Sequence record: NC_041869.1 | DNA length: 64,000 bases | Reading direction: 5' to 3' (one strand) | DNA from: Escherichia phage APECc02 | Shown here: in pieces, positions 13,956-30,768 of the stretch | Position numbering within the stretch: position 1 is the stretch's first letter | Layout: the number at the start of each line of letters is the position of its first letter | Translations under genes and position numbers: made by a program | Notes under the pieces: generated by a model | What the model was told of the DNA's origin: nothing | Databases searched by the model: none | What the model saw: only the letters and a program-made list of their open reading frames with translations

Positions 13956-13985
13956 TGGTCCTCCCTTTGTAGGTTAAATTGTATA

Positions 13986-14749: not shown

Positions 14750-14786
14750 GCTACCTCCTACCTACCATCCCTGGTAAGATAAATTA

Positions 14787-15185
14787 TTACTGAACAGAGC
14801 GCGGTGCTGGGAAGGATAACTCTTCTAAAGAGAAGATTTCATTTCCTACCACCCAAGTTGCTGGGTCATCTGGATCAACAGGTTGGATAATCATTACCTC
14901 ATCCGCCTCGCACACACGTTTCCCACCCATAGTAGCGTCAGCCACTAACATACGCGGCTCTTCAGAAATGCACAGGTAGCCACCTCGGCCCACTGTTCCT
15001 TCCACGGGATCCTGCCCTTTGACCACAATGAATACCTTCTCTCCTGTGGCGATATTACTTTTCACACTAACAGTTTGACCAACTTTAGATGTACCGATCT
15101 TGGTGGCTTCAAACATTAAATCCCGAATTACTGTTGCATAGTTGCCGGACACTTTCTTACCTTCTTTAGTAATCTCAATCTTCAT
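14787..15185 (-). CDS. hypothetical protein (MKIEI...)
   Basis: ORF co-oriented. Confidence 0.5.
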   Translation of the reverse strand: MKIEITKEGKKVSGNYATVIRDLMFEATKIGTSKVGQTVSVKSNIATGEKVFIVVKGQDPVEGTVGRGGYLCISEEPRMLVADATMGGKRVCEADEVMIIQPVDPDDPATWVVGNEIFSLEELSFPAPRSVQ

Positions 15186-15457
15186 AATCTAGGCTCCTTA
15201 AATGAATCTATGTAATCAATTAAATCCCAAGCATCGCGATGGGCTGTCAGAGGGTATACTTCTCCGAGAGGGATCATAGCAATAAGTCTATCAAAAACCC
15301 AGTCTGGACGCAACATTTTATGGTGATATTCCCACTCACCTTCCACAGATTTTTTCTGAGTTATCAGGATCTCTGTGTAGTGTTTCTCCTGTCTTGAGTA
15401 GATTGAAAATGACTTGTACATAAATGACCCCCTCTTGTTGAAAACAACAATACACAA
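15182..15457 (-). CDS. hypothetical protein
   Basis: ORF co-oriented. Confidence 0.45.
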   Translation of the reverse strand: MCIVVFNKRGSFMYKSFSIYSRQEKHYTEILITQKKSVEGEWEYHHKMLRPDWVFDRLIAMIPLGEVYPLTAHRDAWDLIDYIDSFKEPRL

Positions 15458-15772
15458 CTACCAGGTTACTGTCAAGTAGGCAACCGTATTATTTTTCTCT
15501 GGGGAGATGCCAACAACATCTACCTGCAGACCTCCTGCCCTTAAATCTCCAACAATGTGAGGGAAGTAATCTGAGAGATGCGAGGGTAGATTTATCGAAA
15601 ATCCGCACCCCAGAAAGCCTGCTAACGCTTTATTTTGTATCTCCCCCACAATCGCATCATAAATGGAGTTAAGCTCGTCAGGGAGCGTTACAGGACGTTT
15701 TAGCGCTAACTGGTGTAATTTGTCCTTAGCACTCATTTTCATTTCAGGTCTACCTCTGGAGGTGCCAACCAC
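15458..15772 (-). CDS. hypothetical protein
   Basis: ORF co-oriented. Confidence 0.45.
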   Translation of the reverse strand: MVGTSRGRPEMKMSAKDKLHQLALKRPVTLPDELNSIYDAIVGEIQNKALAGFLGCGFSINLPSHLSDYFPHIVGDLRAGGLQVDVVGISPEKNNTVAYLTVTW

Positions 15773-16272
15773 ATAAACGGCGGCAAGTCTAAACGGTTTT
15801 TCTTATCCCACACAAAATATGCATATGCTTGCCCGTCAGTTCTGCCGTTTGATTGAAATGATGGACGCTTAGATATTGTGATCACAGTAGTAGGTGCATT
15901 ATCAAGCCACCATTCAAATCTGGCTTTGCTTTCCAGAAAATTAAGACGCAAAAGCATAATAACTACGTCAGCATCTTTCAACGCCTTGTCTACAAACTCA
16001 CGAGCCAGGCTGTATGGTGGGTTGGTGATAATACAGTCAACATGGTTGTATTCTGTATTCAGATAGTCAACACCTTCTTGTATTTCTCCCCATGCAGATC
16101 CTAACGGCATACGGGAGTAGAACACACCTGAGGCACTATTCCTGCAAGGCTCTAAGTAGGTCCAGTCTTCTGGGAACGGAATAAGGTCATACAGCCCTTC
16201 TGCACACCACTCCGGTGTCACATACTCATCGTAGGCGTTACGTTGTTCATCAGGTTTTCGAGCACAAGTCAT
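15739..16272 (-). CDS. DNA N6-adenine (amino) methyltransferase, small NPPY-motif type
   Basis: catalytic motif IV CIITNPPYSL. Confidence 0.6.
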   Translation of the reverse strand: MTCARKPDEQRNAYDEYVTPEWCAEGLYDLIPFPEDWTYLEPCRNSASGVFYSRMPLGSAWGEIQEGVDYLNTEYNHVDCIITNPPYSLAREFVDKALKDADVVIMLLRLNFLESKARFEWWLDNAPTTVITISKRPSFQSNGRTDGQAYAYFVWDKKNRLDLPPFMWLAPPEVDLK

Positions 16273-16290
16273 GCAAATCTCCAGATCATA

Positions 16291-16312
16291 AAAGCCCTCC
16301 GAAGAGGGCTTT
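16291..16312 (-). terminator. hairpin AAAGCCCTC-CGAA-GAGGGCTTT
   Basis: perfect 9-bp stem with tetraloop between genes. Confidence 0.4.
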
Positions 16313-16323
16313 AGAATTAATGT

Positions 16324-17373
16324 TTAAGCTTCTTCGACAATTCCTGCACCCAGGATTTTTTCATTGAGCTCTTTTGCTGTTTTAATAATATTGTCCACCA
16401 GACGCTTGCGAGTCTTATCTTTTACCTTAACCTCTTCACCGCCGTTTAGGGTTGTCTTCAATTGGGACAAAATGTCTTGAAGTTCAACGACAGAGAATCG
16501 CTGCAGATCTTCTGAGGTAATCTCACCTAAGGCAATCTTAACGGTCTCACCACTTTCCATCTGCAGGTTCAGGAACACAGTGTGAACATCACCTTTCGAA
16601 CCACCAGCTTTTGCAGATTCAACAGCATGAACTAACTCATCTAAAGAGGTACACTGGTGAATCTCCGGGAGACCTGCTTCACCTAACACACCTTCTTCAT
16701 CACCTTTTGCCAGAAGCTTTTTCGGTTTTTGTCCGTTCTGGATGCGTTGTATGTTACCTTCATCCAGAATGATAGCTCCAGTTCGAGCTGCCAGCTCCTC
16801 TCCGTCCAACCACACTTCACCACCAGCTGTGATGGATGCGATCTCATCTTCTGTCAGCACCCAACCGTAGTATTTTTCGATCAGGCGTTCGAAACGCTTT
16901 TTCCAGTAGCTGACCTGAGTATTCATGTTCACACCGTTACCATAAGTGCCACCTTGATAGTAGTGGAACATAAATTCTGTGTCCGGAGCCACAGTACGTT
17001 CTTTGCAACCCAGCCATAAGATTGTTCCCGCAGAGCAGCACATCCCTTCCGCATGTGCAACAACGCTTGCCTGAGACTCGCGGAATGCCTGCAGATAAGC
17101 CATCGCAATGTGCACGCAACCACCAGGGCTGTTAATGATCACTCGAATGCTTTCTTCAGGCTGAGCCATACGGATCGTCTGCAGGCGAGACATATGATCC
17201 TGCAGGTCTTCCAAATCGTCGATATAAAGAACGTGGTCAACAACAGGTGTTGGGTAGCTGTATGTCTCCATAATACCACCCGGCATACCGAACATTTTAT
17301 TACTCATAGGTTCGAAACCGTTCTGTTTTTCTTTCATGCCGTGTACCATGGTGCTGCGAGGTGTTAAATTCAT
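16324..17373 (-). CDS. ClpP-like serine peptidase (S14 fold) with C-terminal extension
   Basis: INSPGG motif, Ser in CCSAGT, His in MFHYYQGG, matching ClpP catalytic layout. Confidence 0.65.
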   Translation of the reverse strand: MNLTPRSTMVHGMKEKQNGFEPMSNKMFGMPGGIMETYSYPTPVVDHVLYIDDLEDLQDHMSRLQTIRMAQPEESIRVIINSPGGCVHIAMAYLQAFRESQASVVAHAEGMCCSAGTILWLGCKERTVAPDTEFMFHYYQGGTYGNGVNMNTQVSYWKKRFERLIEKYYGWVLTEDEIASITAGGEVWLDGEELAARTGAIILDEGNIQRIQNGQKPKKLLAKGDEEGVLGEAGLPEIHQCTSLDELVHAVESAKAGGSKGDVHTVFLNLQMESGETVKIALGEITSEDLQRFSVVELQDILSQLKTTLNGGEEVKVKDKTRKRLVDNIIKTAKELNEKILGAGIVEEA

Positions 17374-17433
17374 GAGAAATCCTTAATATTGGAAGTTGAA
17401 AGCTATTTATTTAAACCTGATTCACATTTACCT

Positions 17434-17745
17434 TTATTTAGCAATCACTAGTGAATACTTACGATTGTCAGAAGCATCACAGCTCAATGATTGCCAGTCT
17501 ACCACATACCACGTATCATTGTCAACAATTACTTTATCGCCTGTTCTGTAGCAGGTACTGCTTTCAATAATCCGAGACTCGATAAAGAATCTGTGTCGGC
17601 GCTCACGTAGCAACGCTAAGTTGATTATATTACCACCGCTGTCCTTGATCCACACATTCTTGGATCCTTTATTTGCCAAAATTGTCTCGCCGTTGTAGAC
17701 AAACAGGCAGTATATTTTATTCAGTTTCTCTTGTATTGTAGCCAT
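17434..17745 (-). CDS. hypothetical protein
   Basis: ORF with AGAGAGAAGGA RBS downstream of promoter. Confidence 0.5.
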   Translation of the reverse strand: MATIQEKLNKIYCLFVYNGETILANKGSKNVWIKDSGGNIINLALLRERRHRFFIESRIIESSTCYRTGDKVIVDNDTWYVVDWQSLSCDASDNRKYSLVIAK

Positions 17746-17773
17746 ACTGTCCTTCTCTCTGTTTTGTCCGATA

Positions 17774-17802
17774 ATAATATCTAAAGCTTACCTATTTGTC
17801 AA
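17774..17802 (-). promoter_or_regulatory. sigma70-type promoter on minus strand (TTGACA-N17-TATTAT)
   Basis: plus-strand ATAATA 17774-17779 and TGTCAA 17797-17802. Confidence 0.55.
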
Positions 17803-17846
17803 CAACTGTTTTAGATATTTAAGGGTGGAATAACCACCCTTCTGTA

Positions 17847-18635
17847 TTACTCGGAAACAGGGGTCCAAATATGATTTGCACGATCCTCAATAAGATTGAG
17901 TGCGATCTGACGACCCAACCCGGAACGAACGACATCGTCTGGACTATCAAAGCTGATCATTCCAACCTCAGGATCTGGATGACGAGTAAAGAAATCCGTC
18001 ACCCATGCAAGGCCAGATTTACCAGGGATGTCACGTTGGCTATTATCACCCATAATTACAAGGGTGGCCTGATCAGAGATCCTTGTGATAATTGACAACA
18101 TTTCTTCAGGGTTAGTTTGCTGTGCCTCGTCAATCAGGACAAAGCATCGCTCATCGAAACTACGACCACGAATGCTTTCAACTTCACAAATCTCGATACG
18201 ACTGTTCTGACCGTCTCCCAGCATTGCGGCAAAAGCACCTTTGCCAACACGACGACAAATCGTGTCCATCATGCTTCGAAGATAGGGCCACAGTTTCTGC
18301 ATTGCATTTCCGGGTTTAAATCCTGAAGTCTTTCCTGTCTGGACGTAAGGACGTGCAACAATGATCTTATCAATCTCGTTCTTACGCAGAAGATCACCTG
18401 CATATGCAGATGCCATAAATGTCTTACCGGATCCAAACACACCGTTTACAATAATAATCTTACGTGACCCCAGATAATCAAGATACTTTTGCTGCTTCTT
18501 ATTCATTGGTCGGAGAGCTGGAGCGGTGTGCTCTCTTTCGTCAGCAAATTTCTCAGCAGCCTTACGCAGGCGATCAGATTTGCGAGCCTCTCTAGCTTCA
18601 TCACGCATGCGTTTTGTTTCTTTAGCTCGACCCAT
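17847..18635 (-). CDS. phoH: PhoH-like ATPase
   Basis: Walker A GVFGSGKTF plus PhoH-like downstream blocks; AAGGAG RBS. Confidence 0.8.
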   Translation of the reverse strand: MGRAKETKRMRDEAREARKSDRLRKAAEKFADEREHTAPALRPMNKKQQKYLDYLGSRKIIIVNGVFGSGKTFMASAYAGDLLRKNEIDKIIVARPYVQTGKTSGFKPGNAMQKLWPYLRSMMDTICRRVGKGAFAAMLGDGQNSRIEICEVESIRGRSFDERCFVLIDEAQQTNPEEMLSIITRISDQATLVIMGDNSQRDIPGKSGLAWVTDFFTRHPDPEVGMISFDSPDDVVRSGLGRQIALNLIEDRANHIWTPVSE

Positions 18636-18673
18636 GTTGGGACTCCTTTCAGATTGAGATGTGCCAAGTACTT

Positions 18674-19024
18674 TTACTGCAACAGTTTTTCAATAGCCGC
18701 TTCCATGCTGCTTGCAACAGCCTGAACTCGGATATTCATCTCTTCTTGGTGGATCAGCTCCTTAAGCTCTTTAATGGTAAATTCTTTAGAGAAACCTTCC
18801 ACCATAATCTTGTGCAAGGCTTCTTGCGTGTCTACTTGCAAGAACTTTTCCAGTTTGTTGGCAGAGGCTTCTAAATCAGCCCGAATACGAGGGTCATCTG
18901 TGCGATTCAGCATTAGGCGTAAGCCATCAAGATTAGTAGAAATAGCATCTGCATGTTGAGTAACTAACCGTGGCAAAATGAGGTCTACAAACTTATTAGC
19001 CAAATCGATACGTTCTTGTGTCAC
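18674..19024 (-). CDS. hypothetical protein (GTG start)
   Basis: ORF co-oriented; GTGA overlap with upstream small ORF. Confidence 0.45.
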   Translation of the reverse strand: MTQERIDLANKFVDLILPRLVTQHADAISTNLDGLRLMLNRTDDPRIRADLEASANKLEKFLQVDTQEALHKIMVEGFSKEFTIKELKELIHQEEMNIRVQAVASSMEAAIEKLLQ

Positions 19025-19134
19025 TGTTGCACCCCCTCTTCATCTTCATGATGTTTCTTTTCACGCTTGTGTTTTTTCTTAAGCTCAAGCGCAATCTCTT
19101 TCTTGTACGCCTTCTTCAAGGCTTTTTTAGCCAT
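19021..19134 (-). CDS. possible 37-aa Lys-rich peptide
   Basis: GGAGG RBS 7 nt upstream of ATG; stop overlaps next start; below track cutoff. Confidence 0.3.
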   Translation of the reverse strand: MAKKALKKAYKKEIALELKKKHKREKKHHEDEEGVQQ

Positions 19135-19196
19135 TTGGCACCTCCTCTGCTTTCATTACGCTAATTATAACCAACTTAACAAAACTTTGTCAACAA

Positions 19197-19670
19197 TTAG
19201 TCAACCTGAACCCAACCACCTGCTGCCTTTTTAAACATTCTTTGGTTATCACTACCTCTGAAGGGTTTTTTGGTTGGGTTATCTTTTTCGTACTTACCAT
19301 CCATAATGTAATCGACACTATCTTTAATGTAATCGGGAACCTCTTCAAACAAATACCCTGTGTACACCCAGATAGTTTTTGTGTTGCCGAAGTGTTCACG
19401 GATAGCGCTAATGATCGAGTACATACCCTCAATATTGTAAGGCGCTAAAGGTTCGCCACCGCATAATGTAACGCCAGTAATGTGTTTCGGCTCTATAGAG
19501 TGAAGTATACTCTCAATAGTGTCATTTGTTAACGGTTCCCCTTTAGCTGGTGACCAAACACTTTTGTTTTGGCAACCGACGCAGTGATGTGGGCAACCAG
19601 AACAGAACACCGTTGTCCTAATGCCTGGGCCGTCAACCATGCTACACTCTATAATATTAACAACATTCAT
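19197..19670 (-). CDS. nrdG: anaerobic ribonucleotide reductase activating protein (radical SAM)
   Basis: CSGCPHHCVGCQN cysteine motif; adjacent to nrdD. Confidence 0.85.
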   Translation of the reverse strand: MNVVNIIECSMVDGPGIRTTVFCSGCPHHCVGCQNKSVWSPAKGEPLTNDTIESILHSIEPKHITGVTLCGGEPLAPYNIEGMYSIISAIREHFGNTKTIWVYTGYLFEEVPDYIKDSVDYIMDGKYEKDNPTKKPFRGSDNQRMFKKAAGGWVQVD

Positions 19671-19903
19671 TCCTTATCCTCTTTTAGGTAAGGATATTCA
19701 GGCCCACAATAAGCTCTATCCAAGAAAACAGCTTCTTCCCCTCTGGAATCAGTAGATCTATAATACCCATCACCATGGTAACTAACGAACCAGTGGCACC
19801 CATCATCGCTTTCTACTGTTGTGGCTCTGTCCGAATGAAAGATAATTTCGTAATCCTTACCGAATGTAAACCATCTGTTAGCTTTTACACAGACACCTAT
19901 CAT
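19667..19903 (-). CDS. hypothetical protein
   Basis: ORF overlapping nrdG start by 4 nt. Confidence 0.45.
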   Translation of the reverse strand: MIGVCVKANRWFTFGKDYEIIFHSDRATTVESDDGCHWFVSYHGDGYYRSTDSRGEEAVFLDRAYCGPEYPYLKEDKE

Positions 19904-20054
19904 AAGGAACCTCTCTTCTGTGGTGTGCTTCTATTCAAGATAAACCTATAAAAGTCCATTTGATGAAGCCGTATAACTTTTTATACTTACGCTTCAGTGC
20001 TAACAATTTTATCTTGATTTTCTTGATAGATTCCCGCATTTCGACCCCTTATGC

Positions 20055-20171
20055 TTATAAGTACTCCGCATCGCATTCAGGGCAATGCCAAATAAAATCG
20101 TCCAGTGCCTTGCACCAACGAAGATTGCAACGACAACCACACTTGCAAATTTTATAAATACCTTTAGACAT
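20055..20171 (-). CDS. possible 38-aa Cys-rich zinc-ribbon peptide
   Basis: AGGGGGGG RBS; C-x-C-x-C...C-x2-C pattern; below track cutoff. Confidence 0.3.
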   Translation of the reverse strand: MSKGIYKICKCGCRCNLRWCKALDDFIWHCPECDAEYL

Positions 20172-20235
20172 ACTGTACCCCCCTAGCTCACTGTGTGTCA
20201 ATAATATGCCACATCCTTGTGGCTTTTGTCAAGTA

Positions 20236-22359
20236 TCAGCAACTACAACTTCCATAGTGCTTAACTCGCTCGATAACTTCCGCTTGCTTACCTTTATTGT
20301 AAGGACGGGAGTTAGGACTGGAAAGGTATCCAGACACACGTCGAATTACACTGATCGTTCCCTCTTCATGGTTTCCACACTCTGGGCATACAAAGCCTTT
20401 AGCTGTTGCACTGAACTCACCAGAGAAACCACACTTGAGACATTTATCCACAGGTTGGTTAATACCAAAATACATAATATGTTTATACCCGAAGTCAACA
20501 AGAGCCTCTAAAGCATCCAGGTTGTTTTTCAGGTTAGGTGTCTCTACGTATCCAATGTTGCCACCAGAGGAGATCATAGCAAAACCTTCCTCATACTCCC
20601 ACTTATCAAAAGGAGAGCTATTTATCCACACTGGCTGATGGAAACTGTTGGTGAGATATTCATGCTCGTGCTTTAACACTTCTGGATATTCACGATCCAG
20701 ACAGGTTGCAGCTTTATAGCATAGACTCTCAGAAGGAGTGCCGTACAAGCTAAATGCTAGTCTACTTTCCTTCTTGTATCGCTCACAAGCATCTCTCATG
20801 TGCTGAAGGATTCCAAGAGCTAAAGCCTTGTCACCTTCTCTGCCCAAAATCTGACAGGTTTCATACACACCAATATACCCAATACTGATGGAAGCGTACC
20901 CGTCATAGAAGAGTTTATCAATACTTTCTTCGGGATCCAGGCGAGCAAGAGCGCCTTCACACCACATGATGGGGTTCTGCCCTGCCTTTGTTCCTTTTAG
21001 ACGGTTAACCCTTACAAGGTGAGCCTCGTATGCAAGATCCAAGTATTCGTCAAGAACTGCAAAGAAATCAACACCTTCCGTCTTAGCTTTTGCCGCAATC
21101 ATTGGCAGGTTAAGGCTAACAACGCCTAAGTTAAATCTGCCAAGGTATTTCTCCTCGCCTGTTTCCAAGTCATTGTATTTACTAAGAAAACTCCTGCAAC
21201 CCATGCTAGTTACTTTGCCATCTGTCGAGCCTGTCACTTTTCTATTTAGTGGTACAGATACGAAGTCAGGATAGATACGTTCTGCACAGCATTCCAGAGC
21301 TAATCGTTTCAAATCATAGTTAGGATCCCCAGGGTTCATGTTGACACCCTCTTCCAGGAAGAACAGCACTTTAGGGAACACAGGTGTGATACGTTCTTCA
21401 CCAAGACCCATTTTGTGGACTTTCAAGTAGTTTTTGGTAATCATTCTACCAAAGACCGAGGTATCTAGTCCTAAACTTAATGTGATGAATGGAGTTTGCC
21501 CGTTGACAGAGGTTAACGTATTGATTTGATAGAGCAAAGTCTGCATGCTGTCAAATACATCTTTATCTGTCATTTGCATTGCAACAGTTTCAGCATCCGG
21601 CAACCAATGTTCCTGGCAAAATTTAAGGTTCTTCTCATAGGTTGCTTCAGCATACTGTGCCAGATAATGATCAATATGGCTCATAGTCTGACCACCATAT
21701 TGAGCACTAGCTACCGCGCTAGAGATTTGACTAAGGATTGTTGTTGCAACCCCTATTGACTTCGGCTTACTGACATGGGCGTTGCCAATGTTGAATCCGT
21801 TTTCCAACATATCTGGATAATTTACCAAACAACAGTTTGTTAACGGGCTGATCAAGTAGTCAAGATCATGCACATGGATGAAGCCTTTATTGTGCTCTTC
21901 TGAAACACGGTCTGGCAGGATCTGTGTTGATGCAAGGTGTTTGCTAAGGATGCCTGCAAGCAGGTCACGATGAGTGTGTACATGATTAGTGGGCTTATTT
22001 GCGTTTTCTTTTGTAAATTCATCACAAGTTCGATCCAAGAAGCCACTAATATCTGCAAGCAGTTTTCCACCTGCCTCTCTGTTATTATCTCTTGTCTGTC
22101 TATACTGGATGTATTCTCTGGCTGCACATTTTAAACCCATATCCATAAGAGCATCTTCAACAAGGATATGGATATTTTTTACAGAGATCGTGCACTGGTC
22201 GGTTGGCAGATTGTTAGCAACAACTTCATTAACCGCACAAGCGATCCGGTAAGCTTCTTCTTCAGTATGCCCAGACTCAAGTAAGGCGGACTCTGCCGCC
22301 TTGATCACCTTAATTCCGTTATAGAACTCTTCTCTACCGTCCCGTTTTACAACTTTCAC
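20236..22359 (-). CDS. nrdD: anaerobic ribonucleoside-triphosphate reductase
   Basis: 707 aa, C-terminal glycyl-radical-like RVSGY and Cys-rich zinc site. Confidence 0.85.
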   Translation of the reverse strand: MKVVKRDGREEFYNGIKVIKAAESALLESGHTEEEAYRIACAVNEVVANNLPTDQCTISVKNIHILVEDALMDMGLKCAAREYIQYRQTRDNNREAGGKLLADISGFLDRTCDEFTKENANKPTNHVHTHRDLLAGILSKHLASTQILPDRVSEEHNKGFIHVHDLDYLISPLTNCCLVNYPDMLENGFNIGNAHVSKPKSIGVATTILSQISSAVASAQYGGQTMSHIDHYLAQYAEATYEKNLKFCQEHWLPDAETVAMQMTDKDVFDSMQTLLYQINTLTSVNGQTPFITLSLGLDTSVFGRMITKNYLKVHKMGLGEERITPVFPKVLFFLEEGVNMNPGDPNYDLKRLALECCAERIYPDFVSVPLNRKVTGSTDGKVTSMGCRSFLSKYNDLETGEEKYLGRFNLGVVSLNLPMIAAKAKTEGVDFFAVLDEYLDLAYEAHLVRVNRLKGTKAGQNPIMWCEGALARLDPEESIDKLFYDGYASISIGYIGVYETCQILGREGDKALALGILQHMRDACERYKKESRLAFSLYGTPSESLCYKAATCLDREYPEVLKHEHEYLTNSFHQPVWINSSPFDKWEYEEGFAMISSGGNIGYVETPNLKNNLDALEALVDFGYKHIMYFGINQPVDKCLKCGFSGEFSATAKGFVCPECGNHEEGTISVIRRVSGYLSSPNSRPYNKGKQAEVIERVKHYGSCSC

Positions 22360-22634
22360 TTTTTCTCTCCAAAACCATTCTTAACAAAAGAGATGAAATC
22401 GTCGGCACCGCCTATATGGATACTGTCAAGATTGCTTTCTAAGAAGATTTGCGGCAACGTTCTGGGGACAATTGGACTACACTTCTCAATAAGCTCTTCT
22501 TTTGTGTAGCCCTCGCCAAGTGTCTTATATACAAAAGGCAGACCTTTGCTGATTGCAAATTCTTTTGCTCTGACACAATGTGGGCAGTTATCCTTACCGT
22601 AAATGATGATGAAAAAAGATTTTTCGCAGCTCAT
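22356..22634 (-). CDS. glutaredoxin / NrdH-like redoxin
   Basis: CPHC active site in thioredoxin-fold context, between nrdD and nrdB. Confidence 0.75.
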   Translation of the reverse strand: MSCEKSFFIIIYGKDNCPHCVRAKEFAISKGLPFVYKTLGEGYTKEELIEKCSPIVPRTLPQIFLESNLDSIHIGGADDFISFVKNGFGEKK

Positions 22635-22637
22635 ATA

Positions 22638-23726: not shown

Positions 23727-23740
23727 TATTCTAACCTCTA

Positions 23741-23758
23741 AAATGGGGCCGAAGCCCC
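23741..23758 (-). terminator. intercistronic hairpin GGGGC-CGAA-GCCCC
   Basis: stem-loop between nrdA and nrdB. Confidence 0.35.
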
Positions 23759-23765
23759 TTTAAAA

Positions 23766-26081
23766 TTATAGTGCACAACTTTCGCAATACGGATCTTCAA
23801 CTGAACTATCTGCAATCAAAGGATAGTTCTTTCTGGTTTCATCTTCAGCCTGTTTCTTGGCATGAAGTTCCTCTGCCAAGGAGTCACCAGCACCAACCCT
23901 AGAGTTTAAATAATACCATGTCTTCATCCCGAATTTAGTGGCACGGATAAGGTACCCTAGCTGCTCCTTCATTGAAATTTTACCATCTTTCAACTTGGTG
24001 TAGTCTATGTATAAATCCGCGCTGATTGCCTGACCTGTGAATTTTTGAATCACGGCATACATATCGATCATGTCGTTAGTATCAACGTCCCAAGCCGAAG
24101 TGTAATACTCTTTCAACTCATCATAGTCAGGAACGATAAACAGCACCTGCCCTTGTGGCGACTTTTTAAAGATAATGTGCTCACGGACAGGATAAACCCC
24201 GTTAGTGGTGTTTGTTGCCAGCGAAGAGCTTTCATTAGGCATATATGCTTCAAGAACGCTATTACGTAGCCCACCATTCTCAATGATTTCTTTACGTAAC
24301 CCTTCCCAATCCTGTTTAAGAGAAGGATCTTTCACCACGCTATCGACCTCTTTGTTATAGGTGTCGATTGGTAACCAACCTTCTGGATATTTTGTTTTAT
24401 GCATCCACTCGCAGACACCACGCTCTTTTGCCAACCGTAAACTTGCCTTATGCAAGCTGTAGCTGTGAAGTTCTGCAAGATCGTGAACGAGCTGTTTACT
24501 TTCAGGAGACCCGTAAGTAACCTTGTGGCTGGCAATAAAATGTGCAACATTGGTAAGGCCAACCCCGATGGATCTGCGTTTTTTAACTGTGCTTTCCATA
24601 TTTTCATACGGATATGTCATGATTTCCATAACATTGTCAATCATAAGCACCGTATAGTATGCAACATCCTCATACTCCTCTGGAGTAACCCTCCCAGCTA
24701 CAAGAGATGACAGGAAGCACAATGCAACCTCTCCATCATCAGCATCGTACTTGAAGATATTACGCATATCTGAATAGCCTTTTGTCGGGAGGGCTATTTC
24801 TGCACACAGGTTGCTTGAATAGATCACATCTTTAAAAGGTGTATGTCTATTCATCTCATCTGTCCAGTATACGTACAGCCTTCCCACCTCAGTGCGCTGC
24901 GTGATCAGTTCAACAGCAAGATCTCTAGCTCGGATCCATGTTTTAGGAATACTGTCATCTTTAGCAATACGATCAACCTCTGCATCAAACTCCTCCATAG
25001 ACATGGTGAAGATACCCTCATGCAGTTGAGGCGCGTGCTTATAAGAAACAAGCATCCAATCTAAATTCTTAGCCACACGGTTGATAAACGACCTATTAAT
25101 ACCGATGGAGTAGTCCATGGTGTTGATTCTTTTTGAAGCAACAGTCATAGGGTTTCTCAAACGGATTAGCTCATCAATCTGCGGGTCCAGTGCAAGGAAT
25201 GATACTGTTGCAGAACCACCACGTGATTGTTGTCTGTTCTCCTTAACCCCAGCATCAATACCTCGATAATATGGAATCTTACCCATGTGTTTAATAGTGT
25301 TACCACGAACACCATCGCCTGCAGATCTTGAGGATAAGTAGTAGCCGATACCTGCTTGATTAACCGTCATTGTGTACGCAACTTCACGTGCCACACCAAT
25401 AGATTTTGCTGTATCGTCAGCTTTTATTACACAACAAGATGCATACCCTGTCTTACCTGTGCGCAGCCCGTTTAAGTACGGTGTCGGGGCATTGATCTTT
25501 AAGTCGGACAGATACGTGTATAATTTTACAACATCGTTGATACGACGTTCTTTCGGCATATTCTTCATGACAGCCATTGCTATCCCCATAAACATCATCT
25601 GGGGAGATTCAAACAAGGTGTCTTTAAGAGTATCCTTGATCCCATATTTGTCGCGAAACTGTTTAAGGACTGCATAGCCATAACCGAGATCTTTACTGTG
25701 GTCAATAACAGCGTCTAAAGTGTTTAGCTCGGTAAAGCTATAGCCCATATCCTCCCAATACCCTTTCTCAACCATGGTATTGTAAAATGATGGTAAGGAA
25801 GGGATCTTTGTAAACCCTCCAAAAGCCTCTTTATAAATCTGACCAATAAGAACACGACCAGCCATACGGGAATGTGCTTCGTCTTTACGGCTAACACAGG
25901 AGTCTATGATAGCTTGGTTAACTTCTTTGGTTGTACATCCATCATACAGTCGTTTGTATGCATCCAGTGCAATGTGTGACCAATTGCCGTTACCGTCGTC
26001 ACCGAAAATAGCTGCCTTATTTAAACGTTCTGGATCGAATGCCACTTCACATCCGTTGCTTTTAATTACCTTGGTGATCAA
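23766..26081 (-). CDS. nrdA: ribonucleotide reductase class Ia alpha subunit
   Basis: 771 aa, N-terminal ATP-cone-like region, C-terminal CESC-like tail. Confidence 0.85.
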   Translation of the reverse strand: MITKVIKSNGCEVAFDPERLNKAAIFGDDGNGNWSHIALDAYKRLYDGCTTKEVNQAIIDSCVSRKDEAHSRMAGRVLIGQIYKEAFGGFTKIPSLPSFYNTMVEKGYWEDMGYSFTELNTLDAVIDHSKDLGYGYAVLKQFRDKYGIKDTLKDTLFESPQMMFMGIAMAVMKNMPKERRINDVVKLYTYLSDLKINAPTPYLNGLRTGKTGYASCCVIKADDTAKSIGVAREVAYTMTVNQAGIGYYLSSRSAGDGVRGNTIKHMGKIPYYRGIDAGVKENRQQSRGGSATVSFLALDPQIDELIRLRNPMTVASKRINTMDYSIGINRSFINRVAKNLDWMLVSYKHAPQLHEGIFTMSMEEFDAEVDRIAKDDSIPKTWIRARDLAVELITQRTEVGRLYVYWTDEMNRHTPFKDVIYSSNLCAEIALPTKGYSDMRNIFKYDADDGEVALCFLSSLVAGRVTPEEYEDVAYYTVLMIDNVMEIMTYPYENMESTVKKRRSIGVGLTNVAHFIASHKVTYGSPESKQLVHDLAELHSYSLHKASLRLAKERGVCEWMHKTKYPEGWLPIDTYNKEVDSVVKDPSLKQDWEGLRKEIIENGGLRNSVLEAYMPNESSSLATNTTNGVYPVREHIIFKKSPQGQVLFIVPDYDELKEYYTSAWDVDTNDMIDMYAVIQKFTGQAISADLYIDYTKLKDGKISMKEQLGYLIRATKFGMKTWYYLNSRVGAGDSLAEELHAKKQAEDETRKNYPLIADSSVEDPYCESCAL

Positions 26082-26386
26082 TTTGCTTCCTCCACTTCAT
26101 TAACGTATTTATCAAGGCAGGTATCAGTATCTTGCTGGATAAAGGTATCCTCTTCTACAGAGATATTTATAATTTTACCTGTATACTCGTCATAATAAAC
26201 ATCATCATACATTTTAATATCGTTTGTCAGGCCGTTGAACCAAAGCCAACCAACATATTCTGCCCGACTTGCAAAACCAAGATCCTTCCACTTGGAGTTA
26301 TGACTCATCTTCACCACCTTAGCTTTCAATACCGAATAATTTTTCCAGGCGATGCAGATCTTCAAAATTGAAAGGTTCATCAACAA
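26078..26386 (-). CDS. hypothetical protein
   Basis: ORF co-oriented; start may be downstream of track start. Confidence 0.45.
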   Translation of the reverse strand: MLMNLSILKICIAWKNYSVLKAKVVKMSHNSKWKDLGFASRAEYVGWLWFNGLTNDIKMYDDVYYDEYTGKIINISVEEDTFIQQDTDTCLDKYVNEVEEAN

Positions 26387-26819
26387 TATGAATATCTTCA
26401 GCCTTTTCAGATTGTTTTGTATACTTTCTTACATTAACACGATCCTCTACGGGGATATCATACGGGAGATCTTGAACAAGCATTGCCTCACCAGGTGCTT
26501 TATCTACATCTAAAATATCTACACCGTTATACATTTGTGGGTATCTAAAGTCTGCACGCATGACACCAGCAAATACATCTGCCTTTCGATAATGTGTTGG
26601 CTTATTTTTGCATCGAACGTTTTTTCCACGAAGAACATCAATACTTTTTAAATCAAACCCTACGGCAAAGAGTGCAGCTCGGAGACCGTTTCGTGTGCGA
26701 ACGTTAAACCCGGGGACGGTAGATAGAAAATCTAAAGTAACTGAAATAAATGTCTTTTTAGGAATCATAACATTACTCATATCTGTCTCCATTTCTGGCT
26801 CACCAACAAAGTGAGCCAT
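26319..26819 (-). CDS. hypothetical protein
   Basis: ORF; promoter at 26821-26849 suggests a later Met as true start. Confidence 0.45.
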   Translation of the reverse strand: MAHFVGEPEMETDMSNVMIPKKTFISVTLDFLSTVPGFNVRTRNGLRAALFAVGFDLKSIDVLRGKNVRCKNKPTHYRKADVFAGVMRADFRYPQMYNGVDILDVDKAPGEAMLVQDLPYDIPVEDRVNVRKYTKQSEKAEDIHIVDEPFNFEDLHRLEKLFGIES

Positions 26820-26820
26820 T

Positions 26821-26849
26821 ATTATAGATTATCTAATACTATTAGTCAA
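26821..26849 (-). promoter_or_regulatory. sigma70-type promoter on minus strand (TTGACT-N17-TATAAT)
   Basis: plus-strand ATTATA 26821-26826 and AGTCAA 26844-26849. Confidence 0.55.
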
Positions 26850-26878
26850 CACAAAAGTTACCTATCGCTGTGATAGGA

Positions 26879-27862
26879 TTAACCTTTCACGAAGTGGTTA
26901 TTAAGCAGTTGTCTGTGCTGAACCCACCCACAAAAGTTGGCAGACCAGAATTTACCATCACGGTCTTGATGGGTTACACCTTCCTGCCAAGTACTGATGT
27001 CTTGTGTGATTTCACATGAAGACAGGTAGTAGTTTAAACGTTCCATTGCGTTATCGTGATCCATAGGTGTTGCCTGGTGCTCGTAAGGGCTTGCATGAAT
27101 ACGATCCCCACCAATCAATTTTTTAGCCACACTATCTGCCTTTTCAAACGTGCTGTCAATATTTCGATAAGATACTTGTGCACAGCAACTAGCACTGATA
27201 GACAGAGCTTCTTTAGTATCGAGAATGCAGAGCTTTCCTTCTGTGTCACGTACAGCGTAGTTAAACTCTCCGTCCAAATAAACGTGCTCTACATATGGGG
27301 TGTGCCATTGACCCGGTTTAAGGATTTCAGGAGTGCTATTCTCAAGAGCCTCCCACATACAACTAGCTAACATCTGAATCGTAGGATCCGCATCGTGCCA
27401 GCAACGGAGGTGGAAAAAATTATTCCACTCGGTGCTTGTTACAACTGTTTTCATGCGCTGGAACGGCTCCACTAAGCGGTTACATACTTGCTTATGGTAA
27501 CCAGCAAGGGCGAACTTCTCTGCATGCCAAGCGGCGTTTTTTGCAGCTTCTTTCCAAAACTCTTCAGGAGTTAGCTCCATGTCAGTGTACTCTACACGGA
27601 TCTTTTGATCGTGTTCCCCACCATCTTCCATTCCTCGCTTATTTACACCGAAGCGAACTGGCATTGCCGGATTCTCCACAATCTGTTGCAGCATCTTGCC
27701 GACAGGTACTGCACGGGAAGACATGGCGTTTCGGCTGAACACTCGGTGCGTCATAAGCTCTGAGTGAATAATTCGAGGATACTCTAGTTCAAAAGTGGTG
27801 ATACGCTTACCTTTCTCGGAAATGCTGTCAGCAATAATCTTTGCAGTGCACAGTTTTAGCAT
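26879..27862 (-). CDS. thyX: ThyX (Thy1) family flavin-dependent thymidylate synthase-like protein
   Basis: THRVFSRNAMSSR aligns with the ThyX RHR-x7-S signature, first Arg replaced by Thr. Confidence 0.55.
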   Translation of the reverse strand: MLKLCTAKIIADSISEKGKRITTFELEYPRIIHSELMTHRVFSRNAMSSRAVPVGKMLQQIVENPAMPVRFGVNKRGMEDGGEHDQKIRVEYTDMELTPEEFWKEAAKNAAWHAEKFALAGYHKQVCNRLVEPFQRMKTVVTSTEWNNFFHLRCWHDADPTIQMLASCMWEALENSTPEILKPGQWHTPYVEHVYLDGEFNYAVRDTEGKLCILDTKEALSISASCCAQVSYRNIDSTFEKADSVAKKLIGGDRIHASPYEHQATPMDHDNAMERLNYYLSSCEITQDISTWQEGVTHQDRDGKFWSANFCGWVQHRQLLNNHFVKG

Positions 27863-28062
27863 TATTTAGCTCTCCTTGTTTTAATTTTGGAAATTTCGTC
27901 TGGGTTTATGTTGGCCTTAAATGCAAGGTATCTGTTGAACATGTCAGAGCACATATCTTGGGTGATCCTAGAGGCATACACTAGCTTACCTCCTAGATCA
28001 TACACCTCTAGCCAGTCACCGTATCTGACTACAGGATCGCCACCTTTAGAACATCTGCCCAT
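27862..28062 (-). CDS. hypothetical small protein
   Basis: ORF co-oriented. Confidence 0.4.
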   Translation of the reverse strand: MGRCSKGGDPVVRYGDWLEVYDLGGKLVYASRITQDMCSDMFNRYLAFKANINPDEISKIKTRRAK

Positions 28063-28063
28063 T

Positions 28064-28657
28064 TCAAATACCTTCTAAAAATTTTCCTATTTTATACCAG
28101 CTATTAGCGGTATAGTCAACACTGACCTTTAACTCCTCGAATTGCTCATAAGGCGTATCTTTTAGGATTTTAATAACTTCAGGTCGTGAAGCGAATTGGT
28201 TCAGGTATTCATGCCTGTCATCAATTATAACATCTACAGCCACATTTCCTTTGAAATGTGTGGCGTAGAATCCGTGGCCCTGGGTGTGATCGTCCAGATC
28301 CATAAAATCACTGGTCCAACGCTTTAAGAACCTTGATTTAGATGCAAGGTGACCTTTCTTGCATACCGAGATAAATGCAAGCTTGTGACCACGAGCCACC
28401 AAATCTTTCATAACCTCAATAGCCCCCTCTTCAGGCTTAAGGAAGTCGTAGAGGAACGGATCACTCCAGAAATCAAAAGGTCCTATGATGTTTTCTTTGG
28501 GACGATCAGGCCAATACTTTGACAGATCGTAATACATTAGCCCATTAGAAGGTTTAGCTACTGTCTTACTGGCTGGACCATACAAACGCTCCAACCACTC
28601 CCACCATGCTGTTCCTGAATCTACCAGTGTCAGATCTACATCAATTCCGATTAACAT
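28064..28657 (-). CDS. HAD-superfamily hydrolase, deoxyribonucleotidase-like
   Basis: N-terminal DxDxT motif IDVDLT. Confidence 0.55.
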   Translation of the reverse strand: MLIGIDVDLTLVDSGTAWWEWLERLYGPASKTVAKPSNGLMYYDLSKYWPDRPKENIIGPFDFWSDPFLYDFLKPEEGAIEVMKDLVARGHKLAFISVCKKGHLASKSRFLKRWTSDFMDLDDHTQGHGFYATHFKGNVAVDVIIDDRHEYLNQFASRPEVIKILKDTPYEQFEELKVSVDYTANSWYKIGKFLEGI

Positions 28658-29265
28658 TCTTCTTGGGCCTCTTTAGCATCAATATACTTGCACACAATCT
28701 CCGATGCACACTCCCAAGGTGCACCTTCAGGGTTTACAACATCAAACTCAACCCCTTTTATTCCGTTCTTTTCCAGACTTAGATAGGTTCTGGAATCATT
28801 TCCCCAGTCATATCCTACACGGTGAATACGGAACAACAACAGATCTCCACCTGTGCTGTATGCGTACTCGCTAAGGCATGCCAGCTCCTCTTTGAATCCC
28901 CCATCGGAGTAAACAATAACCCCTTTACCTTCAGGGAAATCTTTCTTCAAAGATGCGACTGCGGCTTTACCGAAAGCATCTTCACCAAAGATAGGTTTAA
29001 TCAGATTTTCACTACAATGGATCATCCATTCTCGCGGAGAAACATGCTTGCCGTCTATCATTAAGAAAGGGCAAGGCTCTTCTTTGTAGTGACGGTCATA
29101 AAGTGCATTCCAGAGTTGAGGAGTTACACCAGCTGCCTTAATTGCCACACTGAAGAGCATTTCCTTAACCTCGCGGTGGTGTGAGTTAGGAATAGCTTCC
29201 AACAAGAGATCTGCAATGTGATCCTTACCACTGCTGGGTGGGGCGTTAAGAACAATAATATCCAT
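28651..29265 (-). CDS. deoxynucleoside monophosphate kinase-like (T4 gp1-like)
   Basis: N-terminus IIVLNAPPSSGKDHIADLL resembles T4 dNMP kinase. Confidence 0.55.
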   Translation of the reverse strand: MDIIVLNAPPSSGKDHIADLLLEAIPNSHHREVKEMLFSVAIKAAGVTPQLWNALYDRHYKEEPCPFLMIDGKHVSPREWMIHCSENLIKPIFGEDAFGKAAVASLKKDFPEGKGVIVYSDGGFKEELACLSEYAYSTGGDLLLFRIHRVGYDWGNDSRTYLSLEKNGIKGVEFDVVNPEGAPWECASEIVCKYIDAKEAQEEC

Positions 29266-29468
29266 TAAAAACCTCCGTGGTATTCTTCAACTGCATCAAT
29301 AATACTTTTACACTTATCTACCAGCTCGTTAGCCACTACAGAATCGTCTTCCCAAACAGCCTCCTCAATCTGATCAAGCAATGATCGCATCTTACTCATC
29401 ATTTCTGGGATAAAGTTTTCTGAAAAGCTGTCTGGAATTGTTAACTCTAGTGTCATTTCGGTCTCCAA
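29265..29468 (-). CDS. hypothetical small acidic protein
   Basis: ORF co-oriented. Confidence 0.4.
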   Translation of the reverse strand: METEMTLELTIPDSFSENFIPEMMSKMRSLLDQIEEAVWEDDSVVANELVDKCKSIIDAVEEYHGGF

Positions 29469-29483
29469 TCATACTATGCGTTA

Positions 29484-29942
29484 TTAGAAGTTTGTTTTTA
29501 CACGTCCCTTCTCATCAACCTCGTTGTTAGCTAAAAGCGTTACAAAGTCTGTGAAACGAACATGAAGAACCCTTTTCTTATCAAGGTATCCTAAAGCCAC
29601 CCCTGAGAAATTTAGCATCAAAGGGGCTAAAGAAGCTCTGGCACTGAAATGCTGTTGTTCTACCCTTCCAACACCCTTAGTGTAGGATGGGTTAAGATTG
29701 TAAGTTCTGAATCCCAGTTTTGTTGGAGCTTTAGAATTAAAAACGACTTTATAGCGTTTCTTACTCAACTTATGCTCCAGGATAAGCATTCCCTTATCAC
29801 CTTTGATAAGTTGAAAATCTGTAAAGTGCTCTTTTAAGACGAAAGGTAGTGCCAGTCCCATCGCCTGTCCTCTTTGTACCGCTGTCTCACCAAAAGCTTT
29901 TGCATCAGTAAGTTCTTTGGTCAAGTCTATGCTTTTGATCAT
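29484..29942 (-). CDS. hypothetical protein
   Basis: ORF co-oriented. Confidence 0.45.
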   Translation of the reverse strand: MIKSIDLTKELTDAKAFGETAVQRGQAMGLALPFVLKEHFTDFQLIKGDKGMLILEHKLSKKRYKVVFNSKAPTKLGFRTYNLNPSYTKGVGRVEQQHFSARASLAPLMLNFSGVALGYLDKKRVLHVRFTDFVTLLANNEVDEKGRVKTNF

Positions 29943-30753
29943 ACCTGGTCTCCAAAATGTATTGTAGTTCTTTCTTACCTATACTCTTCATTCCAGCAGT
30001 CTTACCTGCTTCTTCTTGAAAAGAAGAATAGCATTCAGCAAACACTCTGTCAACACCGTTAACTAAAGATTTTATGAAATATGTTGATTCTTCAGATTTT
30101 GGGTCATCATCCCCCAATACTTTTCCAGCATTATACCCAACACGTCTTACACAGAAGTCGTAGTCATCTGGTGTGCTAAAAGAAAATAACTTATTCTCTC
30201 CAATCTCTACAGGATCCCTATTGCACGCCTTTTTCTCCCAAATTTGGAAAACACATGGCACGTCATAAGGTTTGCCATTAAGTAAAAACGAATTCTTAGG
30301 GCACCTTTCGCTGTAGACAAGGTGCATCGACATGTCCAGTTTGTTTGCAAAAAATATTTTTTCAAATGTCCGTGGCAAGATGAAGGCTATAGCCCCTCCA
30401 AGCTCTAGCAATGATGCACAATGGTTAAAGAATTTGCAAGCTAAGGATGAATTCTTGCCAAATGGTGGGTTACCTATGAAGACATCTGCCTTGGGATGCA
30501 CCTCCAAGAAGTTTGCCTGAATGCACGGTGTTGGTCCTTCAAATTCAGGATCTGGTACTAAATCGTACGACAGTATCTCTGAAAATAGTTTTGAAAAAGA
30601 ACCCCTTCCAGCAGAAGGCTCAACGTATGCACAATTCCCATACTTATCTTTTACTTTACCAACAAGATATTCTGCATACTCAGGGTTTGTGTAGTATTTG
30701 TCGTTGGACTCTTTCTTGCTCAAAGTGCCTCCAAAAGGAAAAGGGAGGCGCAA
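29905..30753 (-). CDS. DNA amino-methyltransferase (N6A or N4C)
   Basis: motif I EPSAGRGSF and motif IV FIGNPPFG. Confidence 0.65.
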   Translation of the reverse strand: MRLPFPFGGTLSKKESNDKYYTNPEYAEYLVGKVKDKYGNCAYVEPSAGRGSFSKLFSEILSYDLVPDPEFEGPTPCIQANFLEVHPKADVFIGNPPFGKNSSLACKFFNHCASLLELGGAIAFILPRTFEKIFFANKLDMSMHLVYSERCPKNSFLLNGKPYDVPCVFQIWEKKACNRDPVEIGENKLFSFSTPDDYDFCVRRVGYNAGKVLGDDDPKSEESTYFIKSLVNGVDRVFAECYSSFQEEAGKTAGMKSIGKKELQYILETRYDQKHRLDQRTY

Positions 30754-30760
30754 GCCTCCC
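30725..30760 (-). terminator. hairpin GGGAGGC-GCAA-GCCTCCC with T-rich tail on minus strand
   Basis: inverted repeat plus TTTTCCTTTT. Confidence 0.5.
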
Positions 30761-30768
30761 TATAATTG

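What the first reader, a model, noticed from the sequence alone, without database searches (positions are those of the whole stretch)
15739..30753. Two amino-methyltransferases with different catalytic motifs (NPPY and NPPF)
Two unrelated-looking DNA amino-MTases in the early region suggest protective methylation of phage DNA against host restriction at two different target sites.
Basis: partly seen in the sequence, partly recalled or inferred. Interest (0 to 1): 0.35.

Follow-up and report, generated by a model that had tools for sequence, protein, structure and literature searches.

The report
Two adenine methyltransferases of an rV5-like coliphage
The window comes from an rV5-like E. coli phage, and the two genes are real, long-annotated DNA adenine methyltransferases: one is already shown in a near-identical phage to methylate GATC, and the other probably methylates GTAC, so the finding is correct but ordinary.

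Summary
Two minus-strand genes, 15739-16272 (177 aa, TNPPY) and 29905-30723 (272 aa, GNPPFG), are the only long ORFs in the window with a (D/N/S)PP(Y/F/W) motif.

The window is a Vequintavirus (rV5-like myophage), 97-98% identical to many records. Both genes have been annotated as DNA N6-adenine methyltransferases since rV5 (gp118, gp096).

They are not unrelated. Profile-profile comparison aligns the whole catalytic domain (97% probability). The larger protein adds a C-terminal domain of about 100 aa.

The small enzyme is 176/177 identical to Bas51 bas51_0176. Published D69G, D79G and T83P mutations of that gene abolish GATC 6mA in virion DNA and let the phage escape two retrons.

The same data show about 510 methylated GTAC adenines that do not depend on that enzyme. 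I count 258 GTAC sites, so essentially all are methylated. The NPPF enzyme is the best candidate, but this is an inference: the genus also carries a type III Mod-like methyltransferase outside the window.

An anti-restriction role is plausible and untested. These phages are reported as exceptionally sensitive to the restriction-modification systems tested.

Verdict: already known, low interest.

The parts
15739..16272 (-). MTase A: 177-aa minimal N6-adenine DNA methyltransferase, made of the catalytic Rossmann domain only. It is the orthologue of rV5 gp118 and Bas51 bas51_0176, and GATC-specific by published genetics on that orthologue.
16012..16023 (-). Motif IV of A (NPPY, aa 84-87), preceded by the invariant T83.
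   Evidence: T83, N84, P85 and P86 are invariant in 29 homologues. The T83P mutation is loss-of-function in Bas51.
16120..16152 (-). Motif I of A (EPCRNSASGVF, aa 41-51). This is the gamma-type 'EPxxxxGxF' AdoMet-binding loop. More distant homologues have EPCxGxG.
   Evidence: Alignment A1; coordinates.
16060..16068 (-). The D69-Y-L motif of A (motif III-like). D69 is nearly invariant and is the site of the published D69G escape mutation.
16292..16311 (-). G+C-rich hairpin (AAGCCCTC-TTCG-GAGGGCTT followed by a T run) between clpP-like and MTase A. GGAG at 16279-16282 and the ATG at 16272 follow it.
   Evidence: Read directly from the sequence.
29905..30723 (-). MTase B: 272-aa gamma-class, type-II-derived orphan N6-adenine DNA methyltransferase. 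It is the orthologue of rV5 gp096 and Bas51 bas51_0200, and the probable GTAC enzyme (inferred). The mechanical ORF extends to 30753.
30460..30471 (-). Motif IV of B (NPPF), within the invariant GNPPFG.
   Evidence: G94, N95, P96, P97, F98 and G99 are invariant in 31 homologues.
30595..30621 (-). Motif I of B (EPSAGRGSF, ORF aa 45-53).
   Evidence: E45, P46, S47, A48, G49, G51 and F53 are invariant. Coordinates.
29908..30216 (-). C-terminal domain of B, about 100 aa (RRVGxxAGKV ... TAGxxS(I/L)xKxEL). A lacks it. It is the presumed target-recognition domain.
30742..30761 (-). Terminator-like hairpin (8 pairs, 6 G-C, T-rich tail) between the DnaQ-like exonuclease gene and MTase B. GGAGG at 30728-30732 and the TTG start at 30723 follow it.

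Best explanation
The window is a Vequintavirus (rV5-like E. coli myophage). Its nucleotide-metabolism and replication arm carries two orphan S-adenosylmethionine-dependent DNA N6-adenine methyltransferases. They are distant paralogues with the same gamma-type motif order (motif I before motif IV). MTase A (177 aa, TNPPY) is only a catalytic domain. During infection it methylates the adenine of essentially every GATC in phage DNA, so it acts as a phage-encoded Dam analogue. This is shown by published genetics and nanopore sequencing on an orthologue that is 176/177 identical. MTase B (272 aa, GNPPFG) has the same core plus a C-terminal recognition domain of about 100 aa. It belongs to a family that forms type II restriction-modification pairs in bacteria. 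It most likely writes the GTAC 6mA that is found on essentially every GTAC site of the related virion DNA and that does not depend on MTase A. That assignment is inferred. The likely benefit is immunity to restriction enzymes whose sites are or contain GATC or GTAC. For A, substituting for host Dam on fast-replicating phage DNA is another possible benefit. These roles are inferred and not shown. A demonstrated cost is that A's activity triggers retron abortive infection.
For: - Identity of the phage: 112 phage records cover at least 80% of 15000-31000 at 95-99% identity. The window is collinear with Bas51 92268-140659 followed by 1-17488.
- Prior annotation: rV5 gp118 and gp096 and their BASEL equivalents are annotated as DNA or N6-adenine methyltransferases.
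- A tied to GATC: of the four Bas51 MTases, only bas51_0176 has D69, D79 and T83, the residues mutated in retron escapees. It differs from the window protein at one residue.
- Nanopore 6mA counts in PMC12548924: wild type GATC 1405, GTAC 509, other 576; T83P mutant 35, 511, 349.
- Site counts: Bas51 has 703 GATC sites (1406 adenines) and 258 GTAC sites (516 adenines). Both motifs are therefore about 99% methylated on both strands, and GTAC methylation is independent of A.
- Homology of A and B: hhalign 97.3% probability.
- Type II ancestry of B: PADLOC MTase_II at 3.7e-34, and adjacent REase_II-like genes in 22 loci plus 5 loci out of 80.
- The alternative GTAC candidate: the only other adenine MTase of the genus (bas51_0070) is a type III Mod homologue (PADLOC MTase_III 1.5e-205; PDB Mod and EcoP15I Mod). 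By established knowledge that class normally marks one strand of short asymmetric sites, not both strands of a 4-bp palindrome.
Against: - No experiment links B to GTAC, and bas51_0070 cannot be excluded.
- B has no significant Pfam or NCBIfam hit and no PDB sequence hit.
- My palindrome-avoidance test on bacterial loci carrying B-like R-M pairs singled out no site. GTAC O/E was 0.71 in those loci and 0.75 in the others.
- Protection from restriction is untested, and the BASEL study reports Vequintavirinae as exceptionally susceptible to RM systems.
- GTAC is under-represented in the phage (O/E 0.53-0.59). That is not what full self-protection would predict, although CTAG is equally depleted.
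Confidence: 0.7

Rival explanations
1. The GTAC methylation is written by the type III Mod-like methyltransferase of the genus (the bas51_0070 orthologue, outside this window). MTase B then has a different specificity that was rare or missed, or it is weakly active or inactive on phage DNA.
For: Bas51 has three adenine-MTase genes but only two clear motifs were reported. 349 'other' methylated adenines remain in the T83P mutant and are unassigned. Nothing experimental ties B to any motif.
Against: bas51_0070 is a full-length type III Mod homologue. By established knowledge such enzymes typically hemimethylate asymmetric 5-6 bp sites, which would fit the roughly 350 'other' calls better than 516 palindromic adenines. 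B is the only remaining type-II-like enzyme with a compact recognition domain, and its homologues pair with small type II REases.
Confidence: 0.22
2. MTase B is not a DNA enzyme. It is an RNA (rRNA or tRNA) adenine methyltransferase used by the phage to modify host or phage RNA.
Confidence: 0.05
3. The methyltransferases do methylate phage DNA, but their main selected function is not anti-restriction. For A it would be a Dam-replacement role, for example keeping GATC fully methylated to avoid MutH nicking, or serving replication or packaging control as Dam does in phage P1. Alternatively the role would be evasion of defence systems that read methylation state.
For: In the T83P mutant only 35 of 1406 GATC adenines pass the 60% call threshold. 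The E. coli hosts named in the paper (MG1655, a BL21 derivative) are presumably dam+, so host Dam apparently does not keep up and the phage supplies its own enzyme. Vequintavirinae are not notably RM-resistant. Methyltransferase mutants had slightly lower titres without any retron (S3/S4 tables).
Against: No data on MutH, packaging or replication in this phage group. GATC- and GTAC-targeting restriction enzymes are common in bacteria, so anti-restriction remains the simplest benefit. The titre differences are stock titres, not fitness assays.
Confidence: 0.3

Closest known systems
Bas51 (Escherichia phage WalterGehring) bas51_0176 N6-adenine methyltransferase, the retron Asa1/Squ1 trigger (PMC12548924)
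   Same: 176/177 identical to MTase A. Same genomic position, downstream of the clpP-like gene. D69, D79 and T83 are present. GATC 6mA depends on it.
   Different: One substitution (V174A) near the C-terminus. Nothing else distinguishes them. The window's own phage has not been tested.
Classical phage Dam enzymes (T4/T2 Dam, P1 Dam, T1 Dam) and the Pfam PF05869 'Dam' family of small phage N6-adenine MTases
   Same: Phage-encoded orphan enzymes that methylate GATC in phage DNA (own knowledge for T4, T1 and P1). The PF05869 profile is 169 positions long, similar in size to A, and gives a weak hit to A (19.2 bits, aa 69-143). 8 of 29 family members hit it at E<=0.01.
   Different: A is below the PF05869 gathering score (28.1) and below TIGR01712 (16 vs 97 bits). 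T4 Dam is an alpha-class enzyme with a separate recognition domain (own knowledge). A has gamma-type motif order and no recognition domain.
M.TaqI and other gamma-class type II adenine MTases (M.BseCI, CamA, MmeI methylase module)
   Different: Sequence identity is only 15-21%. The chains matched are larger (382-751 aa) and bind other sites. A lacks the recognition domain altogether.
Known GTAC N6-adenine MTases: M.HpyAXII (H. pylori, gamma class, catalytic N87), M.CviQI, M.PabI (PMC2588503)
   Same: They write the same product that is observed on the related virion DNA (GT6mAC). M.HpyAXII is also a small gamma-class enzyme whose motif IV asparagine is at about residue 87 (N85 in the 272-aa form of B).
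   Different: The known GTAC enzymes are only 15-18% identical to one another, so shared specificity does not imply shared family. They are partnered with restriction enzymes; B is an orphan.

Membership tests
Amino (N6-adenine/N4-cytosine) DNA methyltransferases | Catalytic motif IV (D/N/S)PP(Y/F/W), conserved across homologues | tested here: met
   A has TNPPY with T83, N84, P85 and P86 invariant in 29 sequences. B has GNPPFG invariant in 31 sequences.
Amino (N6-adenine/N4-cytosine) DNA methyltransferases | AdoMet-binding motif I and a Rossmann-like class I MTase fold | tested here: met
Gamma-class architecture (motif I before IV, recognition domain C-terminal) | Motif order I then IV | tested here: met
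   A has motif I at aa 41-51 and motif IV at 84-87. B has motif I at 45-53 and motif IV at 95-98.
Gamma-class architecture (motif I before IV, recognition domain C-terminal) | A C-terminal target-recognition domain | tested here: inconclusive
   B has a conserved C-terminal domain of about 100 aa, which lets it align over 229-253 residues to TRD-bearing enzymes. A ends about 20 residues after motif VIII and has no such domain. The feature is met for B and not met for A.
Pfam PF05869 'Dam' / NCBIfam TIGR01712 phage N6-adenine MTase | Score at or above the curated cut-off | tested here: not met
   A scores 19.2 bits against a cut-off of 28.1 for PF05869, and 16.1 against 97.05 for TIGR01712.
Pfam PF07669 Eco57I-type methylase / PF02384 N6_Mtase | Score at or above the curated cut-off | tested here: not met
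   B scores 15.5 bits against 25.3 for PF07669. No N6_Mtase hit was found for either window protein.
PHROG families 799 (A) and 5172 (B) | Strong match to the family profile | tested here: met
   A matches phrog_799 at 8.1e-67. B matches phrog_5172 at 4.4e-129, a family annotated 'unknown function'.
Type II restriction-modification methyltransferases (for B) | Homologues encoded next to a type II restriction endonuclease | tested here: met
   22 of 80 bacterial loci have a same-strand downstream gene of about 215 aa matching PADLOC REase_II PDLC03460. Five more loci have a different REase_II-like gene, PDLC03550. B itself matches MTase_II PDLC03255 at 3.7e-34.
Orphan (solitary) phage methyltransferase | No cognate restriction endonuclease beside the gene in the phage | tested here: inconclusive
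   The neighbours of A are a clpP-like gene and a small hypothetical gene. The neighbours of B are a DnaQ-like exonuclease and a 152-aa hypothetical gene. The 152-aa neighbour has no PDB sequence hit and no counterpart in the bacterial R-M loci.
GATC-specific Dam-like activity (A) | GATC 6mA depends on the gene | not testable with these tools
   Shown in the literature for the 176/177-identical orthologue: 1405 calls fall to 35 in the T83P mutant. I verified only that 1405 equals 99.9% of the 1406 GATC adenines in that genome.
GTAC-specific N6-adenine MTase (B) | GTAC 6mA depends on the gene | not testable with these tools
   GTAC 6mA exists at 509-511 of 516 adenines and is independent of A. 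Assignment to B is by elimination and by enzyme class. The palindrome-avoidance test was uninformative.

The most novel reading that the evidence does not exclude
MTase B, a member of a widespread family with no significant Pfam-A match here (PHROG 5172, 'unknown function'), is the GTAC-specific N6-adenine methyltransferase of Vequintaviruses. The published Bas51 methylome left this activity unassigned. MTase A would represent a minimal class of sequence-specific GATC enzyme: 177 aa with no recognition domain, so it must read its site through loops of the catalytic domain or by oligomerising.
Probability: 0.55. Interest if true: 0.3.

Novelty: already known. Interest (0 to 1): 0.2.

Why it matters
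The practical value is modest. Knowing that rV5-like therapeutic and typing phages carry fully GATC- and GTAC-methylated DNA predicts three things. Some restriction enzymes cannot cut their DNA or restrict them (MboI/DpnII-type, RsaI, KpnI-type). Methyl-dependent nucleases of the DpnI type could target them. Retrons that sense GATC methylation will abort their infection.

Assigning GTAC to MTase B would annotate a large uncharacterised family found in phages and in bacterial R-M systems. A 177-aa GATC-specific enzyme would also be a useful minimal model for sequence recognition without a dedicated recognition domain.

Tried and rejected
- Pfam, NCBIfam and PDB sequence searches of both proteins gave only sub-threshold or no hits. 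Scanning every member of both family alignments gave nothing better.
- Many B homologues carry a precomputed PF26055, but that model is not in the local Pfam copy, so I could not name it.
- To infer B's specificity I compared observed and expected counts of all 16 four-base palindromes. I used 180 kb of bacterial loci where a B homologue is paired with a restriction-enzyme-like gene and 478 kb where it is not. No palindrome was selectively avoided. GTAC O/E was 0.71 versus 0.75.
- Pfam and NCBIfam scans of the neighbouring restriction-enzyme-like genes, and a PDB sequence search of one of them, gave no named family, so no specificity could be read from them.
- The genome scan returned no Helicobacter locus among the 80 kept, so homology to M.HpyAXII could not be tested.
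- Foldseek against AFDB50 was unavailable. BFVD hits were unannotated phage proteins.
- Literature searches for RsaI digestion of Vequintavirinae DNA, and for GATC with Vequintavirus, found nothing.
- I considered that the published 'Bas51 N6 adenine methyltransferase' might be B or the type III Mod-like enzyme. I rejected this because only bas51_0176 has D, D and T at positions 69, 79 and 83.
- I considered that the 152-aa gene overlapping B's 3' end might be a restriction partner. No support was found.
Full report
**What is there.** The stretch 14-32.5 kb is a run of minus-strand genes. They include a ClpP-like protease, PhoH, NrdG/NrdD, glutaredoxin, NrdB/NrdA, ThyX, a DnaQ-like exonuclease and endonuclease VII. 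Megablast of 15000-31000 finds 148 phage records. Of these, 112 cover at least 80% of the query, mostly at 95-99% identity, and nearly all are Vequintavirus (rV5-like) coliphages. The window is collinear with Escherichia phage WalterGehring (BASEL Bas51, MZ501111), positions 92268-140659 followed by 1-17488.

**The two candidates.** They are ORF A (15739-16272, minus strand, 177 aa...VDCIITNPPYSLA...) and ORF B (29905-30753, minus strand...DVFIGNPPFGKNSS...).
- A six-frame scan of the whole window for [DNS]PP[YFW] finds nine hits.
- B most likely starts at the TTG at 30723, giving 272 aa. That codon follows GGAGG and corresponds to the MSKK... N-termini of homologues. It is also the start annotated in rV5 and the BASEL phages.
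- The upstream TTG at 30753 sits inside a terminator-like hairpin.
- A similar hairpin plus GGAG precedes A.

**Already annotated.**
- In rV5 (2008) the genes are gp118 'DNA methyltransferase' and gp096 'putative DNA N6-adenine methyltransferase'.
- In the BASEL genomes both are 'putative N6 adenine methyltransferase'.
- The exact A protein of this window is on record from 599 contigs.

**What the proteins are.** Neither reaches a Pfam or NCBIfam cut-off, and neither has a PDB sequence relative.
- A matches phrog_799 ('DNA methyltransferase') at 8e-67. B matches phrog_5172 ('unknown function') at 4e-129 and also phrog_799 at 2.6e-13.
- Alignments of diverse homologues show invariant T-N-P-P in A and G-N-P-P-F-G in B. 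Both have an upstream EPxxGxG-type motif I and a D-aromatic-L motif.
- Profile-profile comparison of the two alignments gives 97.3% probability, E 2.7e-11. It aligns A residues 10-161 with B residues 13-178. The two are therefore distant homologues with the same gamma-type motif order, not unrelated enzymes.
- B continues for another 100 or so conserved residues that A lacks.
- The AlphaFold models are confident (pLDDT 87.5 and 90.7).
- B's longest structural alignments (229-253 residues) are to the DNA adenine methyltransferases M.BseCI, CamA, MmeI and M.TaqI. The RNA-methyltransferase hits cover only the core of about 150 residues.
- B matches a PADLOC type II methyltransferase model end to end, at 3.7e-34.
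- Of 80 bacterial loci encoding B homologues, 22 have a conserved same-strand downstream gene of about 215 aa that matches a PADLOC type II restriction-enzyme model. Five more have a different such gene.
- B is thus an orphaned member of a type II R-M methyltransferase family.

**Experimental anchor from the literature.** A 2025 PLoS Biology paper (PMC12548924) isolated Bas51 escapees of retrons Asa1 and Squ1.
- All escapees had mutations in 'the Bas51 N6 adenine methyltransferase'. Engineered D69G, D79G and T83P each abolished retron defence.
- Over-expression of the enzyme was toxic.
- Nanopore sequencing showed a GATC 6mA motif that nearly vanished in the T83P mutant.
- Bas51 has four annotated methyltransferases: bas51_0070, 0074, 0176 and 0200. 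Translating all four shows that only bas51_0176 has D, D and T at positions 69, 79 and 83. It is 176/177 identical to window MTase A.
- The three mutated residues fall in the conserved D69-Y-L motif, at D79 just upstream of motif IV, and at the invariant T83 next to NPPY.

**Methylome counts.** The paper's source data give methylated adenines as follows.

| Phage | GATC | GTAC | other |
|---|---|---|---|
| Bas51 wild type | 1405 | 509 | 576 |
| Bas51 T83P | 35 | 511 | 349 |

I counted 703 GATC and 258 GTAC sites in the Bas51 genome, that is 1406 and 516 adenines. Both palindromes are therefore about 99% methylated on both strands in virion DNA, and GTAC methylation does not need MTase A. To my knowledge E. 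coli K-12 has no GTAC methyltransferase, so a second phage enzyme must write that mark. The paper does not assign it.

**Who writes GTAC?** The remaining adenine methyltransferases of the genus are B and bas51_0070. The latter lies outside this window. It is a full-length type III Mod homologue, by PADLOC MTase_III at 1.5e-205 and by PDB matches to Mod and EcoP15I Mod. By established knowledge such enzymes normally methylate one strand of short asymmetric sites. That would fit the roughly 350 unassigned 'other' calls better than a fully bi-strand-methylated 4-bp palindrome. B is a compact type-II-derived enzyme, the kind that typically serves 4-6 bp palindromes. The known GTAC adenine enzyme M.HpyAXII is likewise a small gamma-class protein with its catalytic Asn at residue 87. 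I therefore assign GTAC to B with roughly 65% confidence. This is an inference by elimination, not a demonstration. My attempts to strengthen it, through palindrome avoidance around bacterial B-type R-M pairs, named restriction-enzyme families and structural libraries, were uninformative.

**Function.** Methylation of phage DNA at two sites is as good as shown for this genus.
- That it protects against restriction is plausible for enzymes whose sites are or contain GATC or GTAC. RsaI, for example, cleaves only unmethylated GTAC.
- No such experiment exists. The BASEL study found Vequintavirinae 'exceptionally susceptible' to RM systems. From my own knowledge, the recognition sites of the systems named there do not contain GATC or GTAC.
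- The T83P phage has almost no GATC methylation, although the E. coli hosts named in the paper are presumably dam+. This suggests host Dam cannot keep pace and that A acts as a Dam replacement. Mismatch-repair or replication and packaging roles therefore remain open.
- The one demonstrated consequence is negative for the phage: A's activity triggers retron abortive infection.
- The fall of 'other' calls from 576 to 349 in the mutant hints at some off-target activity of the domain-less A. That fits its toxicity, but it could also be base-calling spill-over.

**Verdict.** The feature is already known and annotated, and one enzyme has been characterised. The only new element is the inferred link between B and GTAC. 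Interest is low.

Noticed in passing
window 13986-14519 (-): This ORF is the orthologue of the Bas51 'putative glycosidase' bas51_0171 (R87 is present in bas51_0171). [quoted passage not shown] It lies five genes downstream of MTase A. How it perturbs the retron is unknown.
   Followed up: partly
outside the window (Bas51 MZ501111 64456-65781 and 67042-67806; loci L004:14456-15781 and L004:17042-17806): The genus carries two more annotated methyltransferases. One is a type III Mod-like N6_N4 enzyme (PADLOC MTase_III 1.5e-205). The other is a 'Dcm-like C5 cytosine methyltransferase' that has no Pfam or PADLOC hit. Neither is in this window (tblastn negative).
   Followed up: partly
window 29484-29942 (-): A 152-aa hypothetical gene overlaps the 3' end of MTase B by 38 nt. 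Its only detected relative beside a B homologue is in a phage-like MAG contig (L007), where it sits on the other side of the methyltransferase. It has no PDB sequence relative.
   Followed up: partly
window 20236-22359 (-) versus Bas51 112532-113570 and 114866-115664: nrdD is one uninterrupted 707-aa ORF here. Bas51 has two extra segments at this locus that carry annotated homing endonucleases, one of them splitting nrdD. This is a presence/absence polymorphism of selfish elements.
   Followed up: no
phage records MG065644-MG065689 (hits H21, H27, H82, H96-H98 and others): About 20-30 GenBank records named 'Campylobacter phage', with host Campylobacter jejuni, encode proteins 98-100% identical to these rV5-like coliphage methyltransferases. 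They have rV5-like genome sizes. The host label looks doubtful, suggesting contamination or mislabelling.
   Followed up: no
window-wide and whole Bas51 genome: GTAC and CTAG are the most under-represented 4-bp palindromes, with O/E 0.53-0.59 and 0.57 by a Markov expectation. GATC is at expectation (0.99-1.02). GTAC is thus depleted even though it is fully methylated in the related virion.
   Followed up: partly
window 45260-46072 (+): This is a cluster of seven tRNA genes: Arg-TCT, Tyr-GTA, Ser-TGA, Thr-TGT, Met/Ile-CAT, Pro-TGG and one 99-nt call. ARAGORN gives the 99-nt call a four-base anticodon. Bas51 annotates the corresponding gene as tRNA-Lys.
   Followed up: no
window 28064-29265 (-): A HAD-like hydrolase gene and a P-loop NTPase/kinase-like gene sit directly downstream of thyX (the thyX-proximal side; a 66-aa and a 67-aa ORF also lie in this interval), on the way to MTase B. 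They form a small nucleotide-metabolism module of unknown role.
   Followed up: no
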